A DNA stretch of 19,093 bases. It comes from a virus. The stretch is from the UHGV virus genome UHGV-0806601, one strand, 5' to 3'. The translations under genes and the position numbers were made by a program. The notes under the pieces are model-generated. The model ran no database searches and was not told where the DNA came from. It worked only from the letters and a program-made list of their open reading frames with translations. Below, piece by piece: positions 1,181 to 17,260 of the stretch (its first letter is position 1; every line of letters begins with the position of its first letter).

Positions 1181-1210
1181 TAATTAAAACAATACCTTAC
1201 ACCCTAAACA

Positions 1211-1238
1211 AACCCCGCTTCGGCGGGGTTTTCTTTTG
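1211..1238 (+). terminator. rho-independent terminator after the capsid gene
   Basis: Stem CCCCGC (1213-1218), loop TTCG, stem GCGGGG (1223-1228), followed by TTTTCTTTT. Confidence 0.6.
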
Positions 1239-1284
1239 AGTCTTCTTATGTTATACTTCTGGTAAGTCAAACAGGAGAATTAAC

Positions 1285-2133
1285 ATGACGCCATATGTGT
1301 ACAGAATCAAGTCCAAGCAGGGGCATTTCTATTATGGGTGTCGATACGCCCAAGGGTGCCACCCATCCGATTTCTGGACAACCTACTTCACGTCTTCCAC
1401 GCCCGTCAAATTGCTTATCGAGGAGCACGGGGAAGACTTCTTTGAGCCAAAGATCATAAGGGTATGCCAAACTCAAGAGGAAGCCCTGAGGATAGAGAGA
1501 ACGCTTATCTCACGGTCACACAAATTGCTCGGTTGCCTCAATCAGTTTCTGTGTCGTAAAGATGGAACTCCAGTACATTTTGGAACCTTTGGTCCGCCAA
1601 GTGAAGAAACTAGGGAGAAGATAAGACAAGCTCTTCTTGGGCATAAAAACTCGGAAGAGGCAAAGGAACTCATGAGACAGAAGAAGCTGGGCACAAAGTG
1701 GGGTCAATCGCATAGAGAAGGGATCGAAAGGTACAAAGAAACCCCCAAGTATGCCGAAGTGAGGGAGAAGATCAAAATAGCCACCCAAACCCGAAAGAAA
1801 ACTCCCGAAGAATTAGCAGCAATATCTGCCAAGCTGACTGGTATAAAACGCAGTGATGAAACTCGGAGGCGTATAGCCGATGGTGTTCGCTCCGCACAAC
1901 GAGCGATACCTCTTTACATGAGGCCGCGCGCATTGTCTCTAAAAGACAAATGGGCCATGGCTGGTATGTGTTATGCATTCTGGTTGGAAAAGAAAGGTTC
2001 ATACTACACGTTTTGCACAAACCACAATAATGGCGAAAACATATCCGTATTCCGCTCTATGTACAAAATGTTTGAAGATGGATGGGTTCCTTCAATGGAC
2101 AAAGATTTTGAATCTTATATCAAGTCTGATTGA
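1285..2133 (+). mobile_element. free-standing GIY-YIG homing endonuclease (Seg-like) with C-terminal NUMOD3-type repeats
   Basis: N-terminal YVYRIKSKQGHFYYG is a GIY-(10)-YIG variant. The C-terminal half has repeated S-EE-T-R-x-K-I units (SEETREKIRQALLG, SEEAKELMRQKKLG, TPEELAAISAKLTG, SDETRRRIADGV). An AGGAGA ribosome-binding site sits 7 nt upstream of the ATG. Confidence 0.7.
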
Positions 2134-2217
2134 TTCCCCGACGCCTCTGGCTGGTTAAAGAGTTTCAAAGATTGCATGAGGGTATCATTACCCTCTCTAT
2201 TAATCGAGGAAATCGCA

Positions 2218-2418
2218 ATGAGCCTGAAAGAAGATTCTGTAAACACCACAGTCGCCAACTCCACCTTCCGTGAGTGGCACGACGTATTGTGTAAAGTCGC
2301 GAAAAGCCAGGGTGGTTCGGCCGCCGACGCCGACGCCTGGCGCGATGACTACGAAGCGGGCAAGACCCCGCGCCAGTCTTGGGAAGATGAATGGGGTTGG
2401 GAAGAACAAGAAGGATAA
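2218..2418 (+). CDS. hypothetical small acidic protein (66 aa)
   Basis: ATG at 2218 is preceded by GAGGAA. The ORF is Trp- and acidic-rich at the C-terminus (WEDEWGWEEQEG). No recognisable homology. Confidence 0.4.
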   Translation: MSLKEDSVNTTVANSTFREWHDVLCKVAKSQGGSAADADAWRDDYEAGKTPRQSWEDEWGWEEQEG

Positions 2419-2430
2419 CAGTTTTCAATA

Positions 2431-2457
2431 ACGGGGCGAGAGGTATTATTGCCCCGT
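2431..2457 (+). promoter_or_regulatory. intergenic stem-loop (ACGGGGC ... GCCCCGT)
   Basis: A 7-bp GC-rich inverted repeat with a 13-nt loop lies just upstream of the 2479 start codon. It could be a terminator or an RNA processing or regulatory hairpin. Confidence 0.35.
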
Positions 2458-2478
2458 CTACTATCCGAGGGTTGTACC

Positions 2479-2703
2479 ATGTACTTGAAAAAGATCGTGA
2501 AGAAGCCGAAAGCCGGTGTTGCCGAGGTGTGCCTCATCGAGGTTTACGTTGATTCTTGTAACAATGAGCAGTGTTACTTCATGGTCGACACGATGGTGTA
2601 TGTGCCAGCCTCTCACCTGAACCGTGATTTCGTCACAACCGAAAATGTCGTCCGCTGGGAGATTGCAACGCAGTCCGATATCGACGAACACAACATTCTT
2701 TGA
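2479..2703 (+). CDS. hypothetical protein (74 aa)
   Basis: ATG at 2479 with GAGGG upstream; compact spacing with its neighbours. Confidence 0.4.
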   Translation: MYLKKIVKKPKAGVAEVCLIEVYVDSCNNEQCYFMVDTMVYVPASHLNRDFVTTENVVRWEIATQSDIDEHNIL

Positions 2704-2720
2704 AAGGAAGGATCTATATC

Positions 2721-3164
2721 ATGTGTGACAAGAATTTCATTTTCATTAGTCCCGCCAAGAAACAGTTCTTCCGTAGCTCCGTTGGGGACAAGGCGGAAGG
2801 TTTCCGTAAATTCAAAGATTATCGCCTGGCATGCGGTGATGTTGATTTTCAGAGTTTCGACAATGATCGCCAGGATTTGAACGATGAGGGTTGGACAGAA
2901 GTTCCATCCCCACAGTTTATCGATGTCAAGCTGTACTACATGAAGGACAATGGGAAGTATTATTCAGAGGGTGTGATCAAAATCAACCGTGGGGAGGCCG
3001 AGGCCGAACCTGCTAAGTCCTGGATGGAGACTATGGATAAAATCCGCTATCTGCTTGACTCAGGCAATTTGCCTGGTTTGGTTAAAGGTGCCCAGTACGA
3101 GGTCTTCGTGACCGGAGAAGGGCATCCAGGTGGGTATCCGGCGGCATTCCGCATTAACAACTGA
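2721..3164 (+). CDS. hypothetical protein (147 aa)
   Basis: ATG at 2721 preceded by GGAAGG. The ORF track places an alternative TTG start at 2700. No homology recognised. Confidence 0.5.
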   Translation: MCDKNFIFISPAKKQFFRSSVGDKAEGFRKFKDYRLACGDVDFQSFDNDRQDLNDEGWTEVPSPQFIDVKLYYMKDNGKYYSEGVIKINRGEAEAEPAKSWMETMDKIRYLLDSGNLPGLVKGAQYEVFVTGEGHPGGYPAAFRINN

Positions 3165-3172
3165 GGTCAAAC

Positions 3173-3409
3173 ATGATTATCAAAAAGATCGGCGCAAGTC
3201 CTCTCACTGGTACTATATTCCAGGGCAGGTTGAACACCAAAACCAGCATGTGGGTTGGTGAGAAGACTGACGTGACAGATGACTGCGTGGCAGCTGTGGC
3301 TGAACATTTGCGTCACATCAAGAAAGACTATTGCTTCCCAACGACGGATGGTAAGTTTCTGGTGCTGAGCGCCGAGGTTCACGACACCCTTCCTGATCGC
3401 TTCAAATAA
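3173..3409 (+). CDS. hypothetical protein (78 aa)
   Basis: ATG preceded by GAGG; tightly packed 8 nt after the upstream stop. Confidence 0.45.
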   Translation: MIIKKIGASPLTGTIFQGRLNTKTSMWVGEKTDVTDDCVAAVAEHLRHIKKDYCFPTTDGKFLVLSAEVHDTLPDRFK

Positions 3410-3429
3410 ATTTTAAATTTATTCAATAA

Positions 3430-3458
3430 ACGGGGTTTACTTCTTCAATAAACCCCGT
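3430..3458 (+). promoter_or_regulatory. intergenic stem-loop (ACGGGGTTTA ... TAAACCCCGT)
   Basis: A perfect 10-bp inverted repeat with a 9-nt loop. The flanks are AT-rich, but there is no clean T-tract on the plus strand. Confidence 0.4.
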
Positions 3459-3512
3459 ATACTTCATTCCATAAGCAGCACAACACTGACTCTGAAATGA
3501 AGGAACTACACC

Positions 3513-3794
3513 ATGAAAACTAAAGCGCAATTGACTGAAGCCCTGAACGCTGGTACTATCACCCACTCTCGTTACAAAGTAACATTGCAGCAATTTGTTG
3601 GTATGGCCGTCAGAAATGCCAAATTCACCCCAATCTCTTCCCCTGAAAAATTTCCAGTTAAGGCCAGCCAGCCGAAGTTTTCGGTAGTTTGCCAGGGTGA
3701 AGAAATCACCGCTCTGTGGGAATATGATAACATGTATTTTGAATGTTCTGACGGCGTGTTAGCATACCATGTGGAAGGTGAGCATTTGTTCTAA
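3513..3794 (+). CDS. hypothetical protein (93 aa)
   Basis: ATG preceded by AGGAA; no homology recognised. Confidence 0.45.
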   Translation: MKTKAQLTEALNAGTITHSRYKVTLQQFVGMAVRNAKFTPISSPEKFPVKASQPKFSVVCQGEEITALWEYDNMYFECSDGVLAYHVEGEHLF

Positions 3795-3853
3795 ACCTTT
3801 GAACAGGGTATGTTAACCGCATACCCTATCCCCTACAAATAGAGGACTTTATC

Positions 3854-4174
3854 ATGGCTAACAGCATCCCGATTTTAGAAGCGGTCGTAAAGGAGAACCC
3901 TCGTGCGCGCAAATCACGTCGCTGCCTGACCACCAAACTGGATATTCTGAAACAGAAGTTCGGCGACCACAGCGTGTTCACTCGCATTCGCAATGCATTA
4001 AAGGAAGGGCGAACTGAGCTGGAACTATATCGACCGAACGGTTCGACACGCGCGTATCAGACCACTGACGGCTTACTGGAACTGATCCGCCTGAGCGGGA
4101 TGACGATCGAACCTCGTTCGTCAGGCACTCCTCTGTGCTCCCTGTACGTAATCGGCAATCTTGGGGCGCTGTGA
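3854..4174 (+). CDS. hypothetical basic protein (106 aa)
   Basis: ATG preceded by GAGGA. The N-terminus is Arg/Lys-rich (PRARKSRR). Confidence 0.45.
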   Translation: MANSIPILEAVVKENPRARKSRRCLTTKLDILKQKFGDHSVFTRIRNALKEGRTELELYRPNGSTRAYQTTDGLLELIRLSGMTIEPRSSGTPLCSLYVIGNLGAL

Positions 4175-4178
4175 TTCT

Positions 4179-4601
4179 ATGAAGAAGTATATCGTTCTCA
4201 TTACGGGTTCCCGCTCAATCACCGAGCGGGATAAGGTATTCGCCAAGCTGGACGAACTCCTCGATCCTCATGAAGTCTATACGTTGATCGAGGGTGAGGC
4301 CACGGGTGTCGACACGATTTGCCGTGATTGGGCTGAAATCAATTATGTTCATATCACTCCTATGCCAATACCTCCGAGCTATTATGAAAAGTATGGGAAA
4401 GGGATGGGTAACAAACGCAATCAGGATATGTTAGACAAGGCATTGGATCTCGTCAGGCAGACCAAGCTGGAAGTGTATCCGATTGCGATGTGGGATGGTT
4501 CGTCCACTGGCACCCTGGACATGATCAACCGTTGCAAGAAAGCTGGCCTCCCTGTGGATATCACTCTAATGGGTAAGCCGAAGACCAAGCGCCTTTTGTA
4601 A
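4179..4601 (+). CDS. Rossmann-like protein with DprA/Smf-LOG (SLOG)-type motifs
   Basis: IVLITGSRS followed by LIEGEATGVDTICRDWA resembles the DprA/Smf pattern remembered as ..VGSR.. then ..SGLA.GID..AH.. This is motif-level resemblance only. Confidence 0.4.
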   Translation: MKKYIVLITGSRSITERDKVFAKLDELLDPHEVYTLIEGEATGVDTICRDWAEINYVHITPMPIPPSYYEKYGKGMGNKRNQDMLDKALDLVRQTKLEVYPIAMWDGSSTGTLDMINRCKKAGLPVDITLMGKPKTKRLL

Positions 4602-4642
4602 CATACCATAAATAATTTGAGTATACACAGCGGAGATACATC

Positions 4643-4813
4643 ATGTTTGTCGTCATCAATCTGTTCTGCTATATCTTCACGGCGTACTTCTTGGGTGCGG
4701 TAGGGATCGAGACCTACAATGACCTGAAGGATGGGGAATACGCCAACCGAATGGTTTATGTTAAGAAGTTTGTTCGTAAGTTCTGGTCCAACTTCGTTTA
4801 CAAACTACCATGA
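4643..4813 (+). CDS. small predicted membrane protein (56 aa; below the ORF-track length cutoff)
   Basis: ATG at 4643 with GGAGA 6 nt upstream. The N-terminal hydrophobic stretch FVVINLFCYIFTAYFLGAVGI is consistent with one transmembrane helix. Translated by hand. Confidence 0.4.
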   Translation: MFVVINLFCYIFTAYFLGAVGIETYNDLKDGEYANRMVYVKKFVRKFWSNFVYKLP

Positions 4814-4818
4814 TCCCT

Positions 4819-4850
4819 AAATACCCCCATCATCCATGGGGGTATTTTCT
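4819..4850 (+). terminator. strong rho-independent terminator
   Basis: A perfect 12-bp inverted repeat, AAATACCCCCAT (4819-4830) and ATGGGGGTATTT (4836-4847), with loop CATCC, followed by TTCTT. Confidence 0.6.
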
Positions 4851-4851
4851 T

Positions 4852-5580
4852 ATGAACGCACAGATCTATGACGCCCTATCGCAGGGCAACGCCTTTACCA
4901 ATCCTCTCCCGTCCCTCAGCAGCGCCTCACAGGGGTTAATCACCAGTGGTAAGGCGACTACAGCGTCACTGGCTAACACCGGAAATGCGCAGATTCAGGA
5001 AGCGCTGACGGCAGGTGGGTTAACTACAGCCAAACTCAACGAATCTACAGCAATGTTCAACTCAGCCAACGACAGCATCACTACTTTGAACAACTATGGC
5101 TACCAGTCAGTGAACGAGGCATATTCCCGCATCGGTACATCTGTGTCGTATAAGTCCGCCCTGAAGTCTATAGGTCGAGAACCGAACAACTGTGATCTGA
5201 TCAATAATGCATTTGGGGTTATTCAGAACCTCGGCAAACAGTGGATCAACACCATGCAAAGTGTTCTCACAACTATCACAAACAAGATGAATGAGCTGGC
5301 TGAGTTGGTAGCTCAGGGTGTCAGTGCTGGTCTTGATGCTATTCGGGCACTGGCTGCTGAAGTTACTCAAGCCATCGACACTGCTGTCGCATCAGTAGCC
5401 TCTATTGCTCAGGACATCACGAACGGTATTGCAGCAGAGTTAGCCCATATCCAAGACATGGTTGGTAAGTGTCTTAACTTCTCTTTCGCCAACGTGATCT
5501 CAGAGTGGGCGAAAGATATCTGCGCCGGAGGTGTCATCAACAGCATCGGTTCCGATAATCTGAAGAACGCGCTGAAGTAA
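4852..5580 (+). CDS. Ala/Ser/Thr-rich hypothetical protein (242 aa)
   Basis: The ORF-track start at 4810 would place the terminator hairpin inside the coding sequence, so the ATG at 4852 (MNAQIYD...) is preferred. Low-complexity A/S/T/N/G-rich sequence. Confidence 0.5.
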   Translation: MNAQIYDALSQGNAFTNPLPSLSSASQGLITSGKATTASLANTGNAQIQEALTAGGLTTAKLNESTAMFNSANDSITTLNNYGYQSVNEAYSRIGTSVSYKSALKSIGREPNNCDLINNAFGVIQNLGKQWINTMQSVLTTITNKMNELAELVAQGVSAGLDAIRALAAEVTQAIDTAVASVASIAQDITNGIAAELAHIQDMVGKCLNFSFANVISEWAKDICAGGVINSIGSDNLKNALK

Positions 5581-5583
5581 TCA

Positions 5584-6060
5584 GTGCTCCCGCGCCGGAA
5601 GAACTCCCACTGGTTCGATGCCATCCAACAGCAGGGAGTTCACACCCACATTACTCAGTCTGATCAAGATCGTTCCTCCTGGGTTAACTTCAAAGATACT
5701 CATCCCATTTCCAACCGCGTCGTTGTTAACGAACACACCCTGAGTTGCGATTCGTACTGGTTTATCTGAGTCATTCATGATCTTGAACGTCACGATTATA
5801 TCTGATGTTGTATCCAGTCGCCCAACCATGTGTTGCTTCAGCTTGGCATGGAATGATGGATTAAAGGTGATAATGATGCTATTGTTCTGAGAGTAATAAA
5901 TACTTGCTGATAGGTATGGAATCTTCCCTTCATCACCACGCCGCAGGAGAGGAATTGTGGTCTTCCAGTATGGCTTGAGGGTGCTCATGTTCTCATCAAA
6001 GCAACCTAAAGGTACGAGCTTCTGGAAGGGCTGGAACTCTTGCACGATGATGTCCAGCAT
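5584..6060 (-). CDS. hypothetical protein (about 159 aa; alternative start at 5988 gives 135 aa)
   Basis: This is the only sizeable ORF covering 5584-5956. The N-terminal part of the 271-aa track ORF is antisense to the plus-strand gene starting at 6260 and looks non-protein-like, so the start is trimmed. Ribosome-binding sites are weak at both candidate starts. Confidence 0.4.
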
Positions 6061-10283: not shown

Positions 10284-10953
10284 ATGCAAGAGATCACTCT
10301 CTCCGAACGTACACTTCAGTTGCTGGCCAACTTTGAGACCATCAACCCATCTATCGTTCTGACACCGGGCAAGATGCTGCGCAGTATTAATGATTCTTCT
10401 ACTGTGATCGCCGTGGCGCAGATCGAAGAAGACTTCCCGTTTGAGTTCCCGATTCTGGACCTGACCAAACTTCTGGCCATCCAGCGCCTACCTTCCTTCA
10501 AAGGTGCCAAAGCCGAATTCCATCAGGACTACATCCTGTTGAAAGGCGAAAGTTCTCAGCTGCAATTCTGGCGTTCTGCTAAAGAACTCACGGTTGTCCC
10601 GGCTGATACTATTTGAACTGCCGTCTGTCGACTTTGAAGCGATCATCACTCCAGAGAAGATGAAAGAACTGACCCGCGCCTGCTCTACCCTAGGACATAA
10701 GACTGTGCGTCTGGTTGCTCAGGGTGGCAAAACACGCCTGGTTGCAACCACCACTACCCTGGACAACTCCAACAACTACACTGTTGAGCTGGGCGAAACC
10801 GCGCTGCCGGACTTCGTAATGCCACTGGATGTTGCCAACCTGAAAATGATCGAAGGCAACTACACTCTGCGTGCATGTGCTGATCTACAAATGGTGAACT
10901 TCCAATCATCCGACGCGACGATCAATTACTTCGTCGGCGCACAGATTGAGTAA
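10284..10953 (+). CDS. 45: sliding clamp (gp45 homolog), reading frame interrupted by a one-base frameshift near 10611-10616
   Basis: Two adjacent ORFs (10284-10616 and 10594-10953) together align collinearly with remembered T4 gp45 (FWRSAKELTVVPADTI / ELPSVDFEAIIT vs T4 FWPAADPSTVVAPNKPIPFPVASAVTEI). The second has no ATG (the track uses TTG). The shift maps to the T-run ACTATTTGAACTG. Confidence 0.7.
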
Positions 10954-15241: not shown

Positions 15242-17260
15242 ATGTCAGATTTTAAGCCCTTCGCAGTAGCTGTCAACAATAACGTGCTGGCCATGTCAGC
15301 AACTGGTCTGTTCATGACCAACATCGATAAAGATGCTCTGTGGGATCTGTATCTGTCTTCTTTCCCTGCTGGCACTAACCCGCTCTACCGTGAGCGTACC
15401 GAGCACGACTGCACCTGCTGTAAACAATTCATCCGTAACATCGGCGGTGTGGTCACCATCGACGCCGACCTGAACGTGATCTCTATCTGGGATAACATTC
15501 AGCTGGGTAACGAATACGACGTTGTCGCTGCGGCGCTGTCAGCGTATGTTAAGCAACACGCAATCGTCGACGTGTACTTCAACGACACCAAGAAAATTGG
15601 TGTTGAGTCGAATCACGAAATGAAAGACGGTATTGTCCGCACCTACAACCACTTCCACACCGACCTGCTGGGCAGCTATGTTCTGCGGGCAGATGCCATC
15701 GCTTCTAAGAAGGGTGAAATCCGCCAGGCGATTGAAGTGTTTGAGCGCGGCCTGCGTGAACTGTCTCTGGAATCGGCTGAAATCGTTCTGGAATTGATCG
15801 ACCAGAATTCTCTGTATCGCGGTGAAGAGCACAAAGCGGCAGTGCAGGCGTTCGTGGTGAACAAGACCATGTACGAACAAACTGCAGAAGAGAAACGCGC
15901 TCTGTGGGCTTGGCGCACTGGCTACCGTGCAAACGGTCATATCCCTCACGGCATTCGTAATACCGTGATTGGCTCTCTGCTGGTAGACCTCAATGAAGGC
16001 CGGGATTTGGAAACCGCCGTGAAGTCCTTTGAAGCCAAAGTCGCCCCGACGAACTACAAGCGCCCAACCGCGCTGGTCACGAAGTCTATGATTGAAAACG
16101 CGCAGAAAGAAGTCGAAGCGCTGGGTCTGACTGATTCACTGGGTCGCCGTTATGCCGTGTATGACGATCTGACCATCAACAACGTTCTGTTTGCCGACCT
16201 GGCAGCACAGAAGAAGATGGACCCGTTTGCTCAGCTGGCGTCTGAAGTGAAGACTCCGACCAAGTCCCTGGACAAGGTTGAAGAGATCACGATCGACGAT
16301 TTCCTGACCAACGTGTTGCCAAAGGCGCATTCCCTGGAAGTGCTGGTCGAAAACTCTCACATTGGCAACCTGATGTCCCTGATCGCTCCGGCTACCGCAG
16401 GCGCTCCTAACCTGTTCAAGTGGAACAACGGCTTCAGCTGGTCGTACAATGGCGAAGTGGCCGACTCTATCAAAGAGCGCGTGAAGACCGCAGGCGGCAA
16501 CGTCGACAGCTTCCTCCGTGTGTCGCTGGCGTGGCATAACAACGACGACCTGGATCTGAGCATGAACGATCCTCTTCACAACCACGTGTATTATCACAAC
16601 CGTCGTTCGGCAACTGGCGCAACCCTGGATATCGACATGAACGGTATGGACGGCATTGATCCCAACCGCCGCCCGGTGGAGAACATCTTCTTCAGCGATG
16701 AACGCAAGCTACGTGATGGTCTGTACGAGTTCTATGTCACTAACTTCAGCCAGCGTGAAACCTGTGATATGGGCTTCGAAATCGAAGTTGAATACAAAGG
16801 CCAGACCAAGCGTTTTTCGCATCCTGGTCTGAAGCACAAAGATCGCACTCTGGCTGTTGTGATTGATGTCCGCGCTGGTCAGGTGGTCAACATCAGTTCT
16901 ACCCTGAAGGACGACGCTCGCTCTCAGGAAATCTGGGGCATCAAGACCTCGGTCTTCCAGAAGGTACAGCTGGTTCTGAACTCACCAAACCATTGGGACG
17001 GTGAGCAGACTGGCAACAAGCACGTGTTCTTCATCCTGGAAGGTTGTGCTAACCCTGTCGGCACCCGTGGCTTCTATAACGAATATCTGAAGCCGGAACT
17101 TGATAAACACCGCAAGGTTTTTGAAATGTTAGGTGGTAAGATTAAAGTACAGCCAAGCACTGAGCAGCTGTCCGGTCTGGGCTTCTCTACCACCCAACGC
17201 AACCACGTGTTCGTGAAGGTGAGCGGTTCGTTCAACCGCACTGTGAAAGTTGTGTTCTAA
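15242..17260 (+). CDS. large hypothetical protein (672 aa)
   Basis: A long ORF with an AGGAAG ribosome-binding site and protein-like composition. Contains an H-D-C-T-C-C cluster near residue 55. No Walker A and no polymerase motifs seen. Confidence 0.6.
   Translation: MSDFKPFAVAVNNNVLAMSATGLFMTNIDKDALWDLYLSSFPAGTNPLYRERTEHDCTCCKQFIRNIGGVVTIDADLNVISIWDNIQLGNEYDVVAAALSAYVKQHAIVDVYFNDTKKIGVESNHEMKDGIVRTYNHFHTDLLGSYVLRADAIASKKGEIRQAIEVFERGLRELSLESAEIVLELIDQNSLYRGEEHKAAVQAFVVNKTMYEQTAEEKRALWAWRTGYRANGHIPHGIRNTVIGSLLVDLNEGRDLETAVKSFEAKVAPTNYKRPTALVTKSMIENAQKEVEALGLTDSLGRRYAVYDDLTINNVLFADLAAQKKMDPFAQLASEVKTPTKSLDKVEEITIDDFLTNVLPKAHSLEVLVENSHIGNLMSLIAPATAGAPNLFKWNNGFSWSYNGEVADSIKERVKTAGGNVDSFLRVSLAWHNNDDLDLSMNDPLHNHVYYHNRRSATGATLDIDMNGMDGIDPNRRPVENIFFSDERKLRDGLYEFYVTNFSQRETCDMGFEIEVEYKGQTKRFSHPGLKHKDRTLAVVIDVRAGQVVNISSTLKDDARSQEIWGIKTSVFQKVQLVLNSPNHWDGEQTGNKHVFFILEGCANPVGTRGFYNEYLKPELDKHRKVFEMLGGKIKVQPSTEQLSGLGFSTTQRNHVFVKVSGSFNRTVKVVF

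What the first reader, a model, noticed from the sequence alone, without database searches (positions are those of the whole stretch)
2134..4813. Island of eight short same-strand ORFs between the homing endonuclease and the downstream genes
Short, tightly packed ORFs with individual ribosome-binding sites, interspersed GC-rich hairpins and no recognisable homologs are typical of the hyperplastic accessory regions of T4-like genomes, where host-takeover and anti-defence genes accumulate. Each ORF is a candidate for an undescribed function.
Basis: inference. Interest (0 to 1): 0.55.

Follow-up and report, generated by a model that had tools for sequence, protein, structure and literature searches.

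The report
Small-gene block of a ViI-like phage
The eight small genes are real, but they lie in a ViI-like (Ackermannviridae) phage rather than a true T4 phage: five are kept by essentially every member of that family and only three sit in swappable slots, so this is a largely ordinary, already-annotated block of unknown-function genes with a few interesting details.

Summary
Eight same-strand ORFs (O1–O8, 2218–4813) are real genes. They fill 86% of the interval, all match PHROG families, and dN/dS is mostly 0.03–0.3. The window is an Ackermannviridae (Aglimvirinae) phage, about 97% identical to E. coli phages ZQ1, RPN242 and AV101.

"No recognisable homologs" is wrong. O7 is a YAcAr/DUF2493 SLOG domain protein and O4 is DUF7446.

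"Hyperplastic" is only partly right. O3, O4, O6, O7 and O8 occur in about 270 Ackermannviridae records, essentially all of them. O1 (190 records), O2 (61) and O5 (55) are patchy.

Homology to relatives breaks within about 35 nt of conserved stem-loops or promoters. This defines three exchangeable slots: the homing endonuclease, O1, and O5.

The O4–O5 spacer is a sigma70-type promoter plus leader. It is 100% identical to phage ViI and present in four related copies in the ZQ1 genome. It resembles the PeSL cassettes of T4-type phages. It probably makes O5–O8 an early unit that ends at the 4819–4847 terminator.

O3 and O6 gave confident models with no informative fold match. No function is demonstrated; anti-defence remains possible but untested.

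Interest is low to moderate. I file it as a new member of a known kind.

The parts
1210..1257 (+). Intrinsic terminator of the major capsid gene (stem 1210-1231 plus T-run), immediately followed by a promoter-like TTTTCT-N17-TATACT (1229-1257). This is the left border of variable slot A.
   Evidence: Terminator scan and fold z-score -3.5. Homology to seven relatives ends at 1232-1238. Most alternative cassettes carry their own -10-like hexamer at a similar distance.
1285..2133 (+). Free-standing homing endonuclease (GIY-YIG/NUMOD3) occupying variable slot A. It lies outside the finding but forms its left flank.
   Evidence: phrog_314 E 5e-33, with weak SegE_GIY-YIG and NUMOD3 matches. The same gene is present only in SW16-7 (90%) and RC-2014 (68%). 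Other relatives have a 1473-nt Hef-like endonuclease or small ORFs here.
2218..2418 (+). O1, 66 aa, acidic (pI 4.3). It is the occupant of variable slot B.
   Evidence: phrog_519 E 5e-22. Found in 190 phage records, only 73 with at least 80% coverage. Absent from AV101, ZQ1, RC-2014, L011 and L013. Hairpins lie upstream (2178-2195) and downstream (2431-2457).
2423..2470 (+). Conserved stem-loop element (stem 2431-2457) at the O1|O2 junction. It marks the right border of slot B.
   Evidence: Fold z-score -3.6. Homology to AV101, L011, L013 and RC-2014 starts at 2408-2423. RPN242 carries two copies flanking O1. It shares TTCAATAA(A)CGGGG...CCCCGTNTACT with the 3422-3463 element (sequence).
2479..2703 (+). 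O2, 74 aa, patchy distribution.
   Evidence: phrog_7113 E 8e-27. Found in 61 records, mostly Aglimvirinae. dN/dS 0.13-0.40.
2721..3164 (+). O3, 147 aa, a family-core gene with deep allelic diversity. It has a variable N-terminal half and a conserved C-terminal domain (motifs LYYMK-SGKYYSEG, LPGL-KG, HPGGYP).
3173..3409 (+). O4, 78 aa, DUF7446, a family-core gene.
   Evidence: PF24233 E 4.6e-30 and phrog_1578. Found in 288 records, 92% identical in Kuttervirus. dN/dS 0.04-0.09.
3415..3512 (+). Ultraconserved non-coding module. It comprises a stem-loop (3430-3458), a sigma70-type promoter TTTACT-N17-TATACT (3436-3463), and a ~45-nt A/C-rich leader with RBS GAAGGAA. It is the left border of slot C and the probable early promoter for O5-O8.
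   Evidence: Nearly invariant in 17 loci. 281 records match, 132 at 99% or more, and it is 100% identical to ViI. ZQ1 has four related copies, each directly upstream of a ~100-118 aa ORF. The LIMEstone1 record annotates it as a putative early promoter (PMC3296691). No Rfam match.
3513..3794 (+). O5, 93 aa, a dispensable and mobile cassette gene occupying slot C.
   Evidence: phrog_10263. Only 55 records, all at 90% identity or more, and spanning both subfamilies. Reduced to remnants in RPN242 and replaced by unrelated ORFs elsewhere. Breakpoints lie at 3513-3521 and 3784.
3805..3827 (+). Conserved stem-loop at the right border of slot C.
   Evidence: Fold z-score -4.4. The stem is invariant and the loop variable across loci. 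Homology resumes at 3784.
3854..4174 (+). O6, 106 aa, pI 9.9. It has a variable, disordered Arg/Lys-rich N-terminus (1-24) and a highly conserved alpha/beta domain (28-101).
4179..4601 (+). O7, 140 aa, a YAcAr (DUF2493) SLOG-superfamily protein. It starts 4 nt after the O6 stop.
   Evidence: PF10686 at 43.6 bits against a cut-off of 28.2. All 19 orthologues tested match it, and the only other SLOG family seen is DprA, in 3 of 19 at E 0.004 or weaker. Invariant motifs TGSR, EGEAxGVD, GNxRN and WDGSSTGTxDM, plus the tail GKPKTKRLL. About 270 Ackermannviridae records and 938 phage records overall. The O6-O7 junction is conserved in Aglimvirinae and Kuttervirus loci but differs in Klebsiella and phiEa2809 loci.
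4607..4614 (+). CATAAATA, a 7/8 match to the T4-type late promoter TATAAATA, located upstream of O8.
   Evidence: Pattern search. The homologous site is annotated as a putative late promoter in LIMEstone1.
4643..4813 (+). O8, 56 aa, a small membrane protein with an N-terminal hydrophobic helix and a basic C-terminus. It is family-core but fast-diverging.
   Evidence: phrog_4845. Kyte-Doolittle 19-residue maximum 2.07 at residues 2-20. Found in 268 records, 33-41% identical in Kuttervirus.
4819..4847 (+). Terminator hairpin followed by TTTTCTT, which ends the block. Its 5' arm carries a late-promoter-like TAAATA for the downstream DUF7217 virion-protein gene.
   Evidence: Fold -17.2 kcal/mol, z-score -4.8. 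Conserved in all loci, with a different but still paired stem in phiEa2809 and a full TATAAATA in Mutine. Annotated as a terminator in Mutine and LIMEstone1.

Best explanation
This is the small-gene block that every enterobacterial Ackermannviridae (ViI-like) phage carries between the major capsid gene (gp23) and the DUF7217 virion protein / gp3 tail-completion genes. It is a conserved scaffold with exchangeable inserts, not a free-for-all accessory island.

Shown:
- O3, O4, O6, O7 and O8 are family-core protein-coding genes under purifying selection.
- The homing-endonuclease slot, O1 and the body of O5 are cassettes that are present, absent or replaced among close relatives. O2 is also patchy, although no exchange breakpoints were mapped for it.
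- Homology breakpoints lie within about 35 nt of conserved stem-loop or promoter elements.

Inferred:
- Exchange happens by homologous recombination across these conserved non-coding elements, as described for promoter-early stem-loop (PeSL) cassettes of T4-type phages.
- The 3436-3463 element is a host sigma70 (early) promoter with a standard leader. O5, O6, O7 and O8 would then form an early transcription unit ending at the 4819-4847 terminator. O8 and the downstream DUF7217 gene additionally have late-promoter-like sites.

Inferred at the protein level:
- O7 is a small Rossmannoid SLOG protein that binds a phosphate-containing ligand, either a nucleotide derivative or single-stranded DNA.
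- O7 probably works together with O6, a basic-tailed small alpha/beta protein that is translationally coupled to it.
- I lean towards a role in phage DNA replication or recombination rather than immune-signal handling.
- O8 is a small inner-membrane protein.
- O3, O4 and the cassette genes O1, O2 and O5 have no inferable biochemical activity. The cassette genes are dispensable, strain-specific early functions.
For: Family placement and synteny:
-.

Presence and absence:
- Locus matrix.
- Whole-database tblastn counts: O1 190, O2 61, O3 268, O4 288, O5 55, O6 271, O7 about 270 at 60% identity or more, O8 268.

Real genes:
- dN/dS mostly 0.03-0.3 where dS is not saturated.
- All eight match PHROG families.

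Breakpoints:
- They lie at 1232-1238, 2145/2181, 2408-2423, 3513-3521 and 3784.
- They sit next to the hairpins at 1210-1231, 2178-2195, 2431-2457, 3430-3458 and 3805-3827.

Slot C:
- Its occupants are O5, phrog_6516 variants, phrog_17538, phrog_16902 or a deletion remnant.

Promoter module:
- TTTACT-N17-TATACT plus a conserved leader, in four related copies in ZQ1, each abutting an ATG.
- 100% identical to ViI.
- Fits the T4/PST-type PeSL promoter consensus TTTACW-N17-TAYWAT except at one -10 position. One ZQ1 copy, with TATAAT, fits exactly (PMC4122927).
- Annotated as a putative early promoter by the LIMEstone1 authors (PMC3296691).

Non-structural status:
- LIMEstone1 virion mass spectrometry flags gp23, DUF7217 and gp3 as confirmed structural proteins, but none of ORF130-136 (PMC3296691).

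O7:
- Pfam YAcAr above threshold, with conserved motifs.
- Homologues in other phages sit beside or are fused to replication and recombination genes. Examples are DNA polymerase in BUCT791, DnaB/primase/endonuclease VII in D29, primase/methylase/ParB in PDP46, and a fusion to the SF1B helicase HelB in ICP1 (bioRxiv 10.1101/671271).
- In this window UvsY, an exonuclease, UvsW, gp45 and gp44/62 follow within 2-8 kb.
Against: - No transcript data exist for any Ackermannviridae phage in the searchable literature, so 'early' rests on promoter resemblance only.
- The promoter scan as a whole is not enriched over shuffles: 8 sites found against 6.5 expected.
- No promoter could be assigned to O1-O4 beyond the weak TTTTCT-N17-TATACT upstream of the homing endonuclease.
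- O7's nearest characterised relatives by published analysis are YpsA-clade SLOG domains. Those are predicted to bind or process NAD+/ADP-ribose-derived signals (PMC9503650, PMC7824862), which favours the rival function.
- DprA similarity is sub-threshold and no PDB sequence match was found.
- Recombination at the conserved elements is inferred from breakpoints in a dozen loci, not observed.
Confidence: 0.6

Rival explanations
1. One reading: the whole interval is a hyperplastic accessory island in which all eight ORFs are strain-variable host-takeover or anti-defence genes.
For: O1, O2 and O5 are patchy, and slot C holds at least four unrelated gene families or is empty. A homing endonuclease is adjacent. 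There is an early-type promoter. O3 shows deep allelic diversity that crosses subfamily borders.
Against: Five of eight ORFs are present in essentially all ~270 Ackermannviridae records, in fixed order. O4, O6 and O7 are strongly conserved (dN/dS 0.03-0.13 in most comparisons). No ORF matches a defence-related profile, and no known anti-defence fold was found for O3 or O6.
Confidence: 0.12
2. O7, alone or with O6, is a counter-defence protein. As a viral YpsA-clade SLOG domain it would sequester or cleave NAD+/ADP-ribose-derived immune signals, such as Thoeris cADPR isomers, early in infection.
For: Published comparative genomics predicts this role for most viral SLOG domains. It also names YAcAr SLOG domains in jumbo phages as NAD+-utilising (PMC9503650; PMC7824862). 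O7 lies downstream of an early-type promoter. The glycine-rich, phosphate-binding-type motifs are intact. Ackermannviridae variably carry NAD+ salvage genes, which a review interprets as anti-depletion functions (PMC11721090).
Against: No Macro, NADAR or Nudix partner is encoded in the block. Universal, strongly purifying conservation across hosts is atypical of arms-race genes. In other phages the gene neighbourhoods and fusions are with polymerase, primase and helicase genes. The only secondary Pfam signal is DprA. No experimental report of a phage SLOG anti-Thoeris protein was found.
Confidence: 0.25
3. The block encodes late morphogenetic helpers or minor virion components, because it lies between head (gp23) and tail (gp3, DUF7217) genes on the same strand.
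For: The position is inside a late structural region. Late-promoter-like sites lie upstream of O8 and DUF7217. O8 is a membrane protein immediately upstream of a virion protein.
Against: LIMEstone1 virion mass spectrometry confirmed gp23, DUF7217 and gp3 but none of the seven block homologues (PMC3296691). A strong terminator follows gp23 and another closes the block. A sigma70-type promoter sits inside the block. O7 belongs to a nucleotide/DNA-binding superfamily.
Confidence: 0.08
4. The ORFs, or some of them, are chance reading frames and not genes.
For: They are short (56-147 aa) and antisense ORFs of 60-87 aa also exist in the interval.
Against: There are PHROG and Pfam matches. Hundreds of conserved homologues exist with synonymous-biased divergence. 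Ribosome-binding sites are present. O3 and O6 give confident AlphaFold2 models.
Confidence: 0.01

Closest known systems
PeSL (promoter-early stem-loop) cassettes and hyperplastic regions of T4-type phages (Arbiol et al. 2010, PMC2839356; Comeau et al. 2014, PMC4122927)
   Same: A stem-loop or terminator sits next to a sigma70-like promoter (TTTACT-N17-TATACT against the T4/PST-type TTTACW-N17-TAYWAT). There are several copies per genome. The elements are positioned at the borders of ORFs that differ between close relatives.
   Different: It is found in Ackermannviridae, which those studies did not cover. Here the conserved unit also includes a ~45-nt leader and RBS, and it is identical across subfamilies. 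In the 3430-3463 copy the stem overlaps the -35 and spacer instead of preceding the promoter. Most genes of the surrounding block are conserved rather than variable.
YAcAr / DUF2493 (Pfam PF10686), the YspA/cpYpsA-related family of the SLOG superfamily
   Same: O7 scores above the Pfam gathering threshold and keeps the family's glycine-rich motifs. Like many members it is a stand-alone ~140-aa phage protein.
   Different: The Pfam model covers only residues 5-58 of O7. The Ackermannviridae orthologues add an invariant basic C-terminal tail (GKPKTKRLL) and a fixed upstream partner gene (O6). No family member has a demonstrated biochemical activity.
DprA/Smf recombination-mediator protein (Pfam PF02481), the ssDNA-binding branch of SLOG
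   Same: The motif pattern is similar by eye (GSR after strand 1, GxD after strand 2, RN, SxGT; the DprA motifs are recalled from memory). It gave the only secondary Pfam signal. Phage homologues of O7 are annotated 'DprA-like' and lie among replication and recombination genes.
   Different: Only 3 of 19 orthologues match, at E 0.004 or weaker and below threshold. There are no SAM or winged-helix DprA accessory domains. No evidence exists for RecA/UvsX loading.
ThsA-type and YpsA SLOG sensors of cADPR/ADP-ribose (Thoeris; B. subtilis YpsA)
   Same: They share the same superfamily. Published predictions say viral YpsA-clade SLOG domains handle ADP-ribose-derived signals.
   Different: There was no sequence match to any solved SLOG structure. 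O7 has no effector domain and no NAD-related neighbours.
Free-standing Seg/Mob/Hef homing endonucleases of T4-related phages
   Same: The flanking 282-aa GIY-YIG/NUMOD3 gene sits in an intergenic slot right after a terminator. It is present, absent or replaced among relatives, as in LIMEstone1, which has 14 homing endonuclease genes (PMC3296691).
   Different: It is not part of the eight ORFs. The O3 allele type does not track the endonuclease type: SW16-7 has the same endonuclease but a 67%-identical O3, while RPN242 has a different endonuclease but a 98%-identical O3.

Membership tests
YAcAr / DUF2493 SLOG family (PF10686), for O7 | Profile-HMM score above the curated Pfam gathering threshold | tested here: met
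   43.6 bits against a cut-off of 28.2, E 2.7e-11. All 19 orthologues tested match, best E 4e-13.
YAcAr / DUF2493 SLOG family (PF10686), for O7 | Conserved glycine-rich or polar loops after the Rossmannoid strands that contact the ligand phosphate | tested here: met
   Invariant TGSR, EGEAxGVD, GNxRN and WDGSSTGTxDM in alignment A3. Their assignment to particular strands is inferred, not modelled.
YAcAr / DUF2493 SLOG family (PF10686), for O7 | Three-layer alpha/beta Rossmannoid fold | not tested
There is no PDB sequence match.
YAcAr / DUF2493 SLOG family (PF10686), for O7 | Binding or processing of a nucleotide-derived ligand or ssDNA | not testable with these tools
   This needs purified protein.
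DprA/Smf (PF02481), for O7 | Profile-HMM match at family level | tested here: not met
   Only 3 of 19 orthologues match, with a best E of 0.0042. The window protein itself does not match.
PeSL regulatory cassette of T4-type phages, for 3430-3463 and 1210-1257 | Stem-loop structure adjoining a sigma70-like early promoter with 17-nt spacing | tested here: met
   Stem 3430-3458 (z-score -5.3) with TTTACT-N17-TATACT at 3436-3463. Terminator 1210-1231 with TTTTCT-N17-TATACT at 1229-1257. Consensus from PMC4122927.
PeSL regulatory cassette of T4-type phages, for 3430-3463 and 1210-1257 | Repeated at several places in the genome | tested here: met
   ZQ1 has four related promoter-plus-leader copies. 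There are 742 matching places in 281 records.
PeSL regulatory cassette of T4-type phages, for 3430-3463 and 1210-1257 | Located at junctions of ORFs that differ between close relatives | tested here: met
   Breakpoints at 1232-1238, 2408-2423, 3513-3521 and 3784 adjoin the elements. Slot C occupants differ between relatives.
PeSL regulatory cassette of T4-type phages, for 3430-3463 and 1210-1257 | Demonstrated promoter and terminator activity | not testable with these tools
   No transcriptome was found for this family.
Hyperplastic region (HPR) of T4-like genomes, for the whole interval | Most genes are phylogenetically variable or non-conserved among related phages | tested here: not met
   Five of eight ORFs occur in about 268-288 records, essentially all Ackermannviridae in the collection, and in conserved order.
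Hyperplastic region (HPR) of T4-like genomes, for the whole interval | Insertions, deletions or replacements between closely related phages | tested here: met
   The homing-endonuclease slot, O1 and O5 differ among phages that are 95-98% identical in the flanks.
DUF7446 (PF24233), for O4 | Profile-HMM score above the gathering threshold | tested here: met
   103.7 bits against a cut-off of 24.1.
Known anti-phage defence or anti-defence proteins, for all eight ORFs | Sequence or fold match to a described family | tested here: inconclusive
   There were no significant PADLOC hits. O3 and O6 gave no informative fold matches. No dedicated anti-defence library was available, and O1, O2, O4, O5 and O8 were not modelled.

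The most novel reading that the evidence does not exclude
The universally conserved, translationally coupled O6-O7 pair is a previously undescribed two-protein early module. O6 has a basic disordered tail and a small alpha/beta domain, and O7 is a YAcAr SLOG protein with the invariant KPKTKRLL tail. The module would either load or protect ssDNA for UvsX/UvsY-type recombination-dependent replication (a phage DprA analogue), or capture nucleotide-derived immune signals. In the same reading, the ultraconserved promoter-leader module would be a family-wide 'expression socket' into which immediate-early counter-defence cassettes (O5, phrog_6516, phrog_17538) are swapped by recombination.
Probability: 0.15. 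Interest if true: 0.6.

Novelty: new member of a known kind. Interest (0 to 1): 0.3.

Why it matters
Ackermannviridae phages are widely used and engineered against Salmonella, E. coli O157, Klebsiella and Dickeya. Yet about half of their genes, including all eight here, are annotated only as hypothetical.

- Knowing which small genes are family-core (O3, O4, O6, O7, O8) and which are dispensable cassettes (O1, O2, O5) tells engineers where payloads can be inserted. It also tells geneticists which genes deserve knock-outs.
- The invariant promoter-leader module marks a natural, recombination-tolerant expression site.
- O7 offers a tractable case for deciding what the large phage DUF2493/YAcAr SLOG family (more than 900 phage records) actually binds.

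None of this overturns current understanding. It extends to the ViI-like phages the known T4-type picture of conserved modules separated by promoter/stem-loop-bounded variable genes.

Tried and rejected
Searches that returned nothing informative:
- NCBIfam and PADLOC scans of all eight ORFs gave nothing significant.
- PDB sequence searches with O7 alone and with its profile gave no SLOG or DprA hit.
- The afdb50 fold library was unavailable.
- Rfam at a permissive E-value matched nothing in the conserved spacers.

Ideas considered and dropped:
- The 'GTP-binding domain' label that RefSeq puts on O7 and DUF7217 traces to phrog_289. That is a 500-position profile matched at positions 20-146 by O7 and at 250-500 by DUF7217. 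I saw no P-loop in the O7 sequence, so I rejected the label.
- A second hairpin (3462-3502) appears to sequester the RBS. Its 5' arm lies upstream of the expected transcription start, and the pairing is not kept in two of the four ZQ1 copies.
- I considered that the promoter-leader is a T4-style origin (promoter plus unwinding element). I have no supporting evidence, and the transcript would be A/C-rich, which is unfavourable for R-loops.
- O3 allele type does not track homing-endonuclease type.
- O6-like partners next to YAcAr genes were not seen outside Ackermannviridae.

Other dead ends:
- Viral-contig scanning with DUF7217 returned only 9 loci, so the GenBank phage collection was used for the counts.
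- Literature searches found no transcriptome or functional study of these genes.
- The Burroughs et al. 2015 SLOG paper is not held.

Full report
**1. What the window is**

A megablast of 1200-5600 finds 266 phage records. All the best ones are Ackermannviridae: Kuttervirus, Agtrevirus, Limestonevirus and Taipeivirus. The closest are E. coli Aglimvirinae phages RPN242, A221, YX22, ZQ1 and AV101, at 95-98% nucleotide identity.

The gene order is as follows:
- gp23 major capsid protein, 29-1180
- terminator
- GIY-YIG/NUMOD3 homing endonuclease, 1285-2133
- eight small ORFs
- DUF7217 virion protein, 4852-5580
- a minus-strand ORF
- gp3, UvsY, an exonuclease, UvsW, gp45, gp44/62 and RegA

The genome is T4-related only in the broad sense used by the LIMEstone1 authors (PMC3296691). 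It is not a T4-type (Straboviridae) phage.

**2. The observation**

The eight + strand ORFs exist at the stated coordinates. Using relatives' annotations and Shine-Dalgarno sequences, I place them as follows:

| ORF | Coordinates | Length (aa) |
|---|---|---|
| O1 | 2218-2418 | 66 |
| O2 | 2479-2703 | 74 |
| O3 | 2721-3164 | 147 |
| O4 | 3173-3409 | 78 |
| O5 | 3513-3794 | 93 |
| O6 | 3854-4174 | 106 |
| O7 | 4179-4601 | 140 |
| O8 | 4643-4813 | 56 |

They occupy 86% of the interval. Pairwise dN/dS against up to eight relatives is mostly 0.03-0.3, so they are genuine protein-coding genes.

Five hairpins fold much better than shuffled controls, with z-scores of -3.6 to -5.3. They lie at 2178-2195, 2431-2457, 3430-3458, 3805-3827 and 4819-4847.

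The statement 'no recognisable homologs' is wrong:
- Every ORF matches a PHROG family.
- O4 is Pfam DUF7446.
- O7 is Pfam YAcAr (formerly DUF2493), a SLOG-superfamily family.

**3. Presence and absence**

I ran tblastn of each ORF against 50,697 GenBank phage records.

| ORF | Records with a match | Note |
|---|---|---|
| O1 | 190 | only 73 near full length |
| O2 | 61 | mostly Aglimvirinae |
| O3 | 268 | |
| O4 | 288 | |
| O5 | 55 | all at 90% identity or more |
| O6 | 271 | |
| O7 | 938 | about 270 at 60% identity or more |
| O8 | 268 | |

About 270 records carry the syntenic region. O3, O4, O6, O7 and O8 are therefore near-universal in the enterobacterial Ackermannviridae.

A locus-by-locus matrix shows the same pattern and adds two points:
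- O3 and O7 are recognisable at 45-49% identity in Erwinia phage phiEa2809 (Nezavisimistyvirus).
- The ORF upstream of that phage's O7 is a probable O6 homologue (hhalign probability 71%, E 4e-5).

In LIMEstone1, virion mass spectrometry confirmed gp23, DUF7217 and gp3 as structural. None of the seven homologues of the block was confirmed (PMC3296691).

**4. Variable slots and their borders**

A blastn of the window against ten related loci shows that homology stops and restarts at a few fixed points:
- 1232-1238, just after the gp23 terminator at 1210-1231
- 2145 or 2181
- 2408-2423, just before the 2431-2457 stem-loop
- 3513-3521, at the O5 start codon
- 3784, which is 10 nt before the O5 stop and 20 nt before the 3805-3827 stem-loop

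These points define three slots.

- **Slot A (1239-2144).** It holds this 282-aa GIY-YIG endonuclease in SW16-7 and RC-2014. RPN242, AV101, ZQ1 and LIMEstone1 have a 490-aa Hef-like endonuclease here. Ag3, Mutine and Klebsiella phages have small ORFs.
- **Slot B (O1).** It is absent from AV101, ZQ1, RC-2014, L011 and L013. In RPN242 it is flanked by two copies of the 2423-2470 element.
- **Slot C (the O5 body).** It is reduced to a 37-nt remnant in RPN242. Elsewhere it holds phrog_6516 variants of 105-154 aa (AV101, L011, Mutine, Klebsiella phages), phrog_17538 (99 aa), or an additional phrog_16902 ORF. None of these has a Pfam or functional assignment.

O5 is 95-100% identical in Agtrevirus, Limestonevirus and some Kuttervirus phages such as dinky. 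Its neighbours are only about 90% identical there, which indicates recent cassette transfer.

O3 behaves differently. It is always present, but its alleles are deeply diverged:
- Identity is 98% to RPN242/ZQ1, 82% to Kuttervirus PhiSH19, 73% to AV101, 67% to Ag3 and ViI, and 55% to CBA120.
- Synonymous divergence is saturated (dS 1.5-3.5), while adjacent genes in the same genome pairs show dS 0.1-0.4.
- dN/dS stays at 0.07-0.24.

This pattern points to allele replacement by recombination rather than to positive selection.

**5. The conserved promoter-leader module**

The 100-nt O4-O5 spacer is almost invariant in 17 loci from three subfamilies or genera. A blastn search finds it in 281 records, 132 of them at 99% identity or more. 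It is 100% identical to ViI. By comparison, the capsid gene is only 86-88% identical to Kuttervirus and Taipeivirus.

The module contains the following elements:
- an A/T-rich upstream stretch
- the 3430-3458 stem-loop
- TTTACT-N17-TATACT at 3436-3463
- a ~45-nt A/C-rich leader ending in GAAGGAACTAYAYC-ATG

The complete ZQ1 genome has four related copies. All share TTTACTTCTTCAATAA-N6-G-TATACT (or TATAAT) and much of the leader. Each sits directly in front of a 100-118 aa gene of unknown function (phrog_10263, 9866, 24635, 13016).

The LIMEstone1 authors annotated this site as one of five putative early promoters (PMC3296691). The hexamers fit the T4/PST-type PeSL promoter consensus TTTACW-N17-TAYWAT except at one -10 position. 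One ZQ1 copy fits exactly (PMC4122927).

The gp23 terminator is likewise followed at once by TTTTCT-N17-TATACT. Most alternative slot-A cassettes bring their own -10-like hexamer at a similar distance.

I therefore read these elements as PeSL-like terminator/promoter cassettes. This element class has been described for T4-type phages but, as far as I could find, not for ViI-like phages. Rfam has no matching family.

A transcription start near 3470, and hence early expression of O5-O8, is inferred. No transcriptome of this family was found.

**6. The end of the block**

The 4819-4847 hairpin has 12 perfect pairs and is followed by TTTTCTT. It is conserved in all loci, and in phiEa2809 the stem has a different sequence but still pairs.

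Its 5' arm carries TAAATA. The equivalent is TATAAATA in Mutine and AATAAATA in phiEa2809, a T4-type late promoter motif. Late transcripts for DUF7217 would then start inside the hairpin and escape termination.

A second late-like motif, CATAAATA, precedes O8 at 4607. The homologous site is annotated as a late promoter in LIMEstone1.

**7. The proteins**

**O7**
- It matches Pfam YAcAr above threshold.
- All 19 orthologues tested match YAcAr. DprA is the only other SLOG family detected, in 3 of 19 orthologues and below threshold.
- The invariant motifs are TGSR, EGEAxGVD, GNxRN and WDGSSTGTxDM. There is also an invariant C-terminal tail, GKPKTKRLL.
- The 'GTP-binding domain' label in RefSeq comes from the chimeric phrog_289, and nothing I found supports it.

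Two published views bear on function.
- Comparative-genomic papers predict that viral YpsA-clade SLOG domains bind or cleave ADP-ribose-derived immune signals (PMC9503650). They also predict that YAcAr domains in jumbo phages use NAD+ (PMC7824862).
- DUF2493 is fused to the SF1B helicase HelB in ICP1 (bioRxiv 10.1101/671271). Homologues lie beside DNA polymerase in BUCT791, between DnaB/RDF and endonuclease VII/primase in D29, and between primase/methylase and ParB in PDP46. Here the gene lies a few kb from UvsY, an exonuclease, UvsW and the clamp genes.

I weigh a DNA-metabolism role slightly above signal handling, but neither is tested.

**O6**
- It has a variable Arg/Lys-rich disordered N-terminus and a nearly invariant 75-residue alpha/beta domain.
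- Its stop lies 4-5 nt from the O7 start in the Aglimvirinae and Kuttervirus loci examined.

**O3**
- It gives a confident model (pLDDT 90).
- A profile search of 1.84 billion representative proteins finds only three or four full-length relatives. About 200 stand-alone 70-100 aa proteins match its C-terminal half. They have no Pfam family.
- The two examined lie on ~50-kb phage contigs, among arrays of small genes next to AAA ATPase, dCTP deaminase and PolA genes.

**O8** has one N-terminal hydrophobic helix and a basic C-terminus.

**O1, O2, O4 and O5** have no informative matches beyond their PHROG or DUF families.

**8. Verdict**

This is a conserved, family-wide block of non-structural small genes. 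It contains three recombination-prone cassette slots bounded by PeSL-like stem-loop and promoter elements. It is not a wholly hyperplastic island.

Anti-defence roles remain plausible for the cassette genes and possible for O7, but nothing here demonstrates them. All eight genes are already present as 'hypothetical protein' in hundreds of GenBank records.

The modestly new points are these:
- the split into core and cassette genes
- the ultraconserved promoter-leader module and its PeSL-like character in Ackermannviridae
- the O6-O7 coupling
- the two-domain nature of O3, whose C-terminal domain is widespread and unnamed

I rate interest at 0.3 and classify the finding as a new member of a known kind.

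Noticed in passing
window 3415-3512: This ~98-nt non-coding promoter-plus-leader module is 100% identical to phage ViI, which belongs to a different subfamily. It is more conserved than any coding sequence in the window, the capsid gene being ~86-88% identical. ZQ1 has four related copies. There is no Rfam family, and the reason for base-perfect conservation is unexplained.
   Followed up: partly
window ~10605-10620 (gp45 sliding clamp, ORFs 10284-10616 and 10594-10953): The essential sliding-clamp gene is split into two overlapping ORFs by a 1-nt insertion (ACTATTTGAA against ACTATTGAA in ZQ1). The most likely cause is a homopolymer sequencing or assembly error. A real frameshift would be remarkable.
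   Followed up: partly
window 4816-4851: The terminator hairpin closing the block carries a T4-type late-promoter-like motif in its 5' arm (TAAATA here, TATAAATA in Mutine). It could therefore serve both as a terminator for early transcripts and as a late promoter for the DUF7217 virion gene. The stem sequence differs but still pairs in phiEa2809.
   Followed up: partly
window 4575-4598 (O7 C-terminus): The tail GKPKTKRLL is invariant at the extreme C-terminus of all Ackermannviridae O7 orthologues, down to 44% overall identity. It may be a protein- or nucleic-acid-interaction peptide. I recognised no known motif.
   Followed up: no
window 2919-3161 (O3 residues 67-147); proteins P0079-P0224: The C-terminal half of O3 defines an unnamed ~75-aa domain (L-YFK-SGKYYSEG ... 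LPGL-G ... HP-GYP). About 200 representative stand-alone small proteins carry it. The two examined lie on phage contigs, in early or replication gene arrays. There is no Pfam family.
   Followed up: partly
window 4179-5580; RefSeq annotations of relatives: The product name 'GTP-binding domain' on both O7 and DUF7217 homologues stems from phrog_289. That 500-position profile joins two unrelated proteins. I saw no P-loop in the O7 sequence, so this looks like an annotation artefact.
   Followed up: yes
window 4852-5580: DUF7217, a confirmed virion protein in LIMEstone1, has homologues at 25-31% identity in Felixounavirus and Erwinia phiEa21-4-like phages. This links a minor structural gene across otherwise distinct myovirus groups.
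   Followed up: no
L025-L027 (ZQ1 MW650886) 91603-91992, 15891-16277, 135415-135847: Three further ~100-118 aa genes of unknown function (phrog_9866, 24635, 13016) sit directly behind copies of the same promoter-leader module. They are candidates for co-regulated immediate-early functions.
   Followed up: partly
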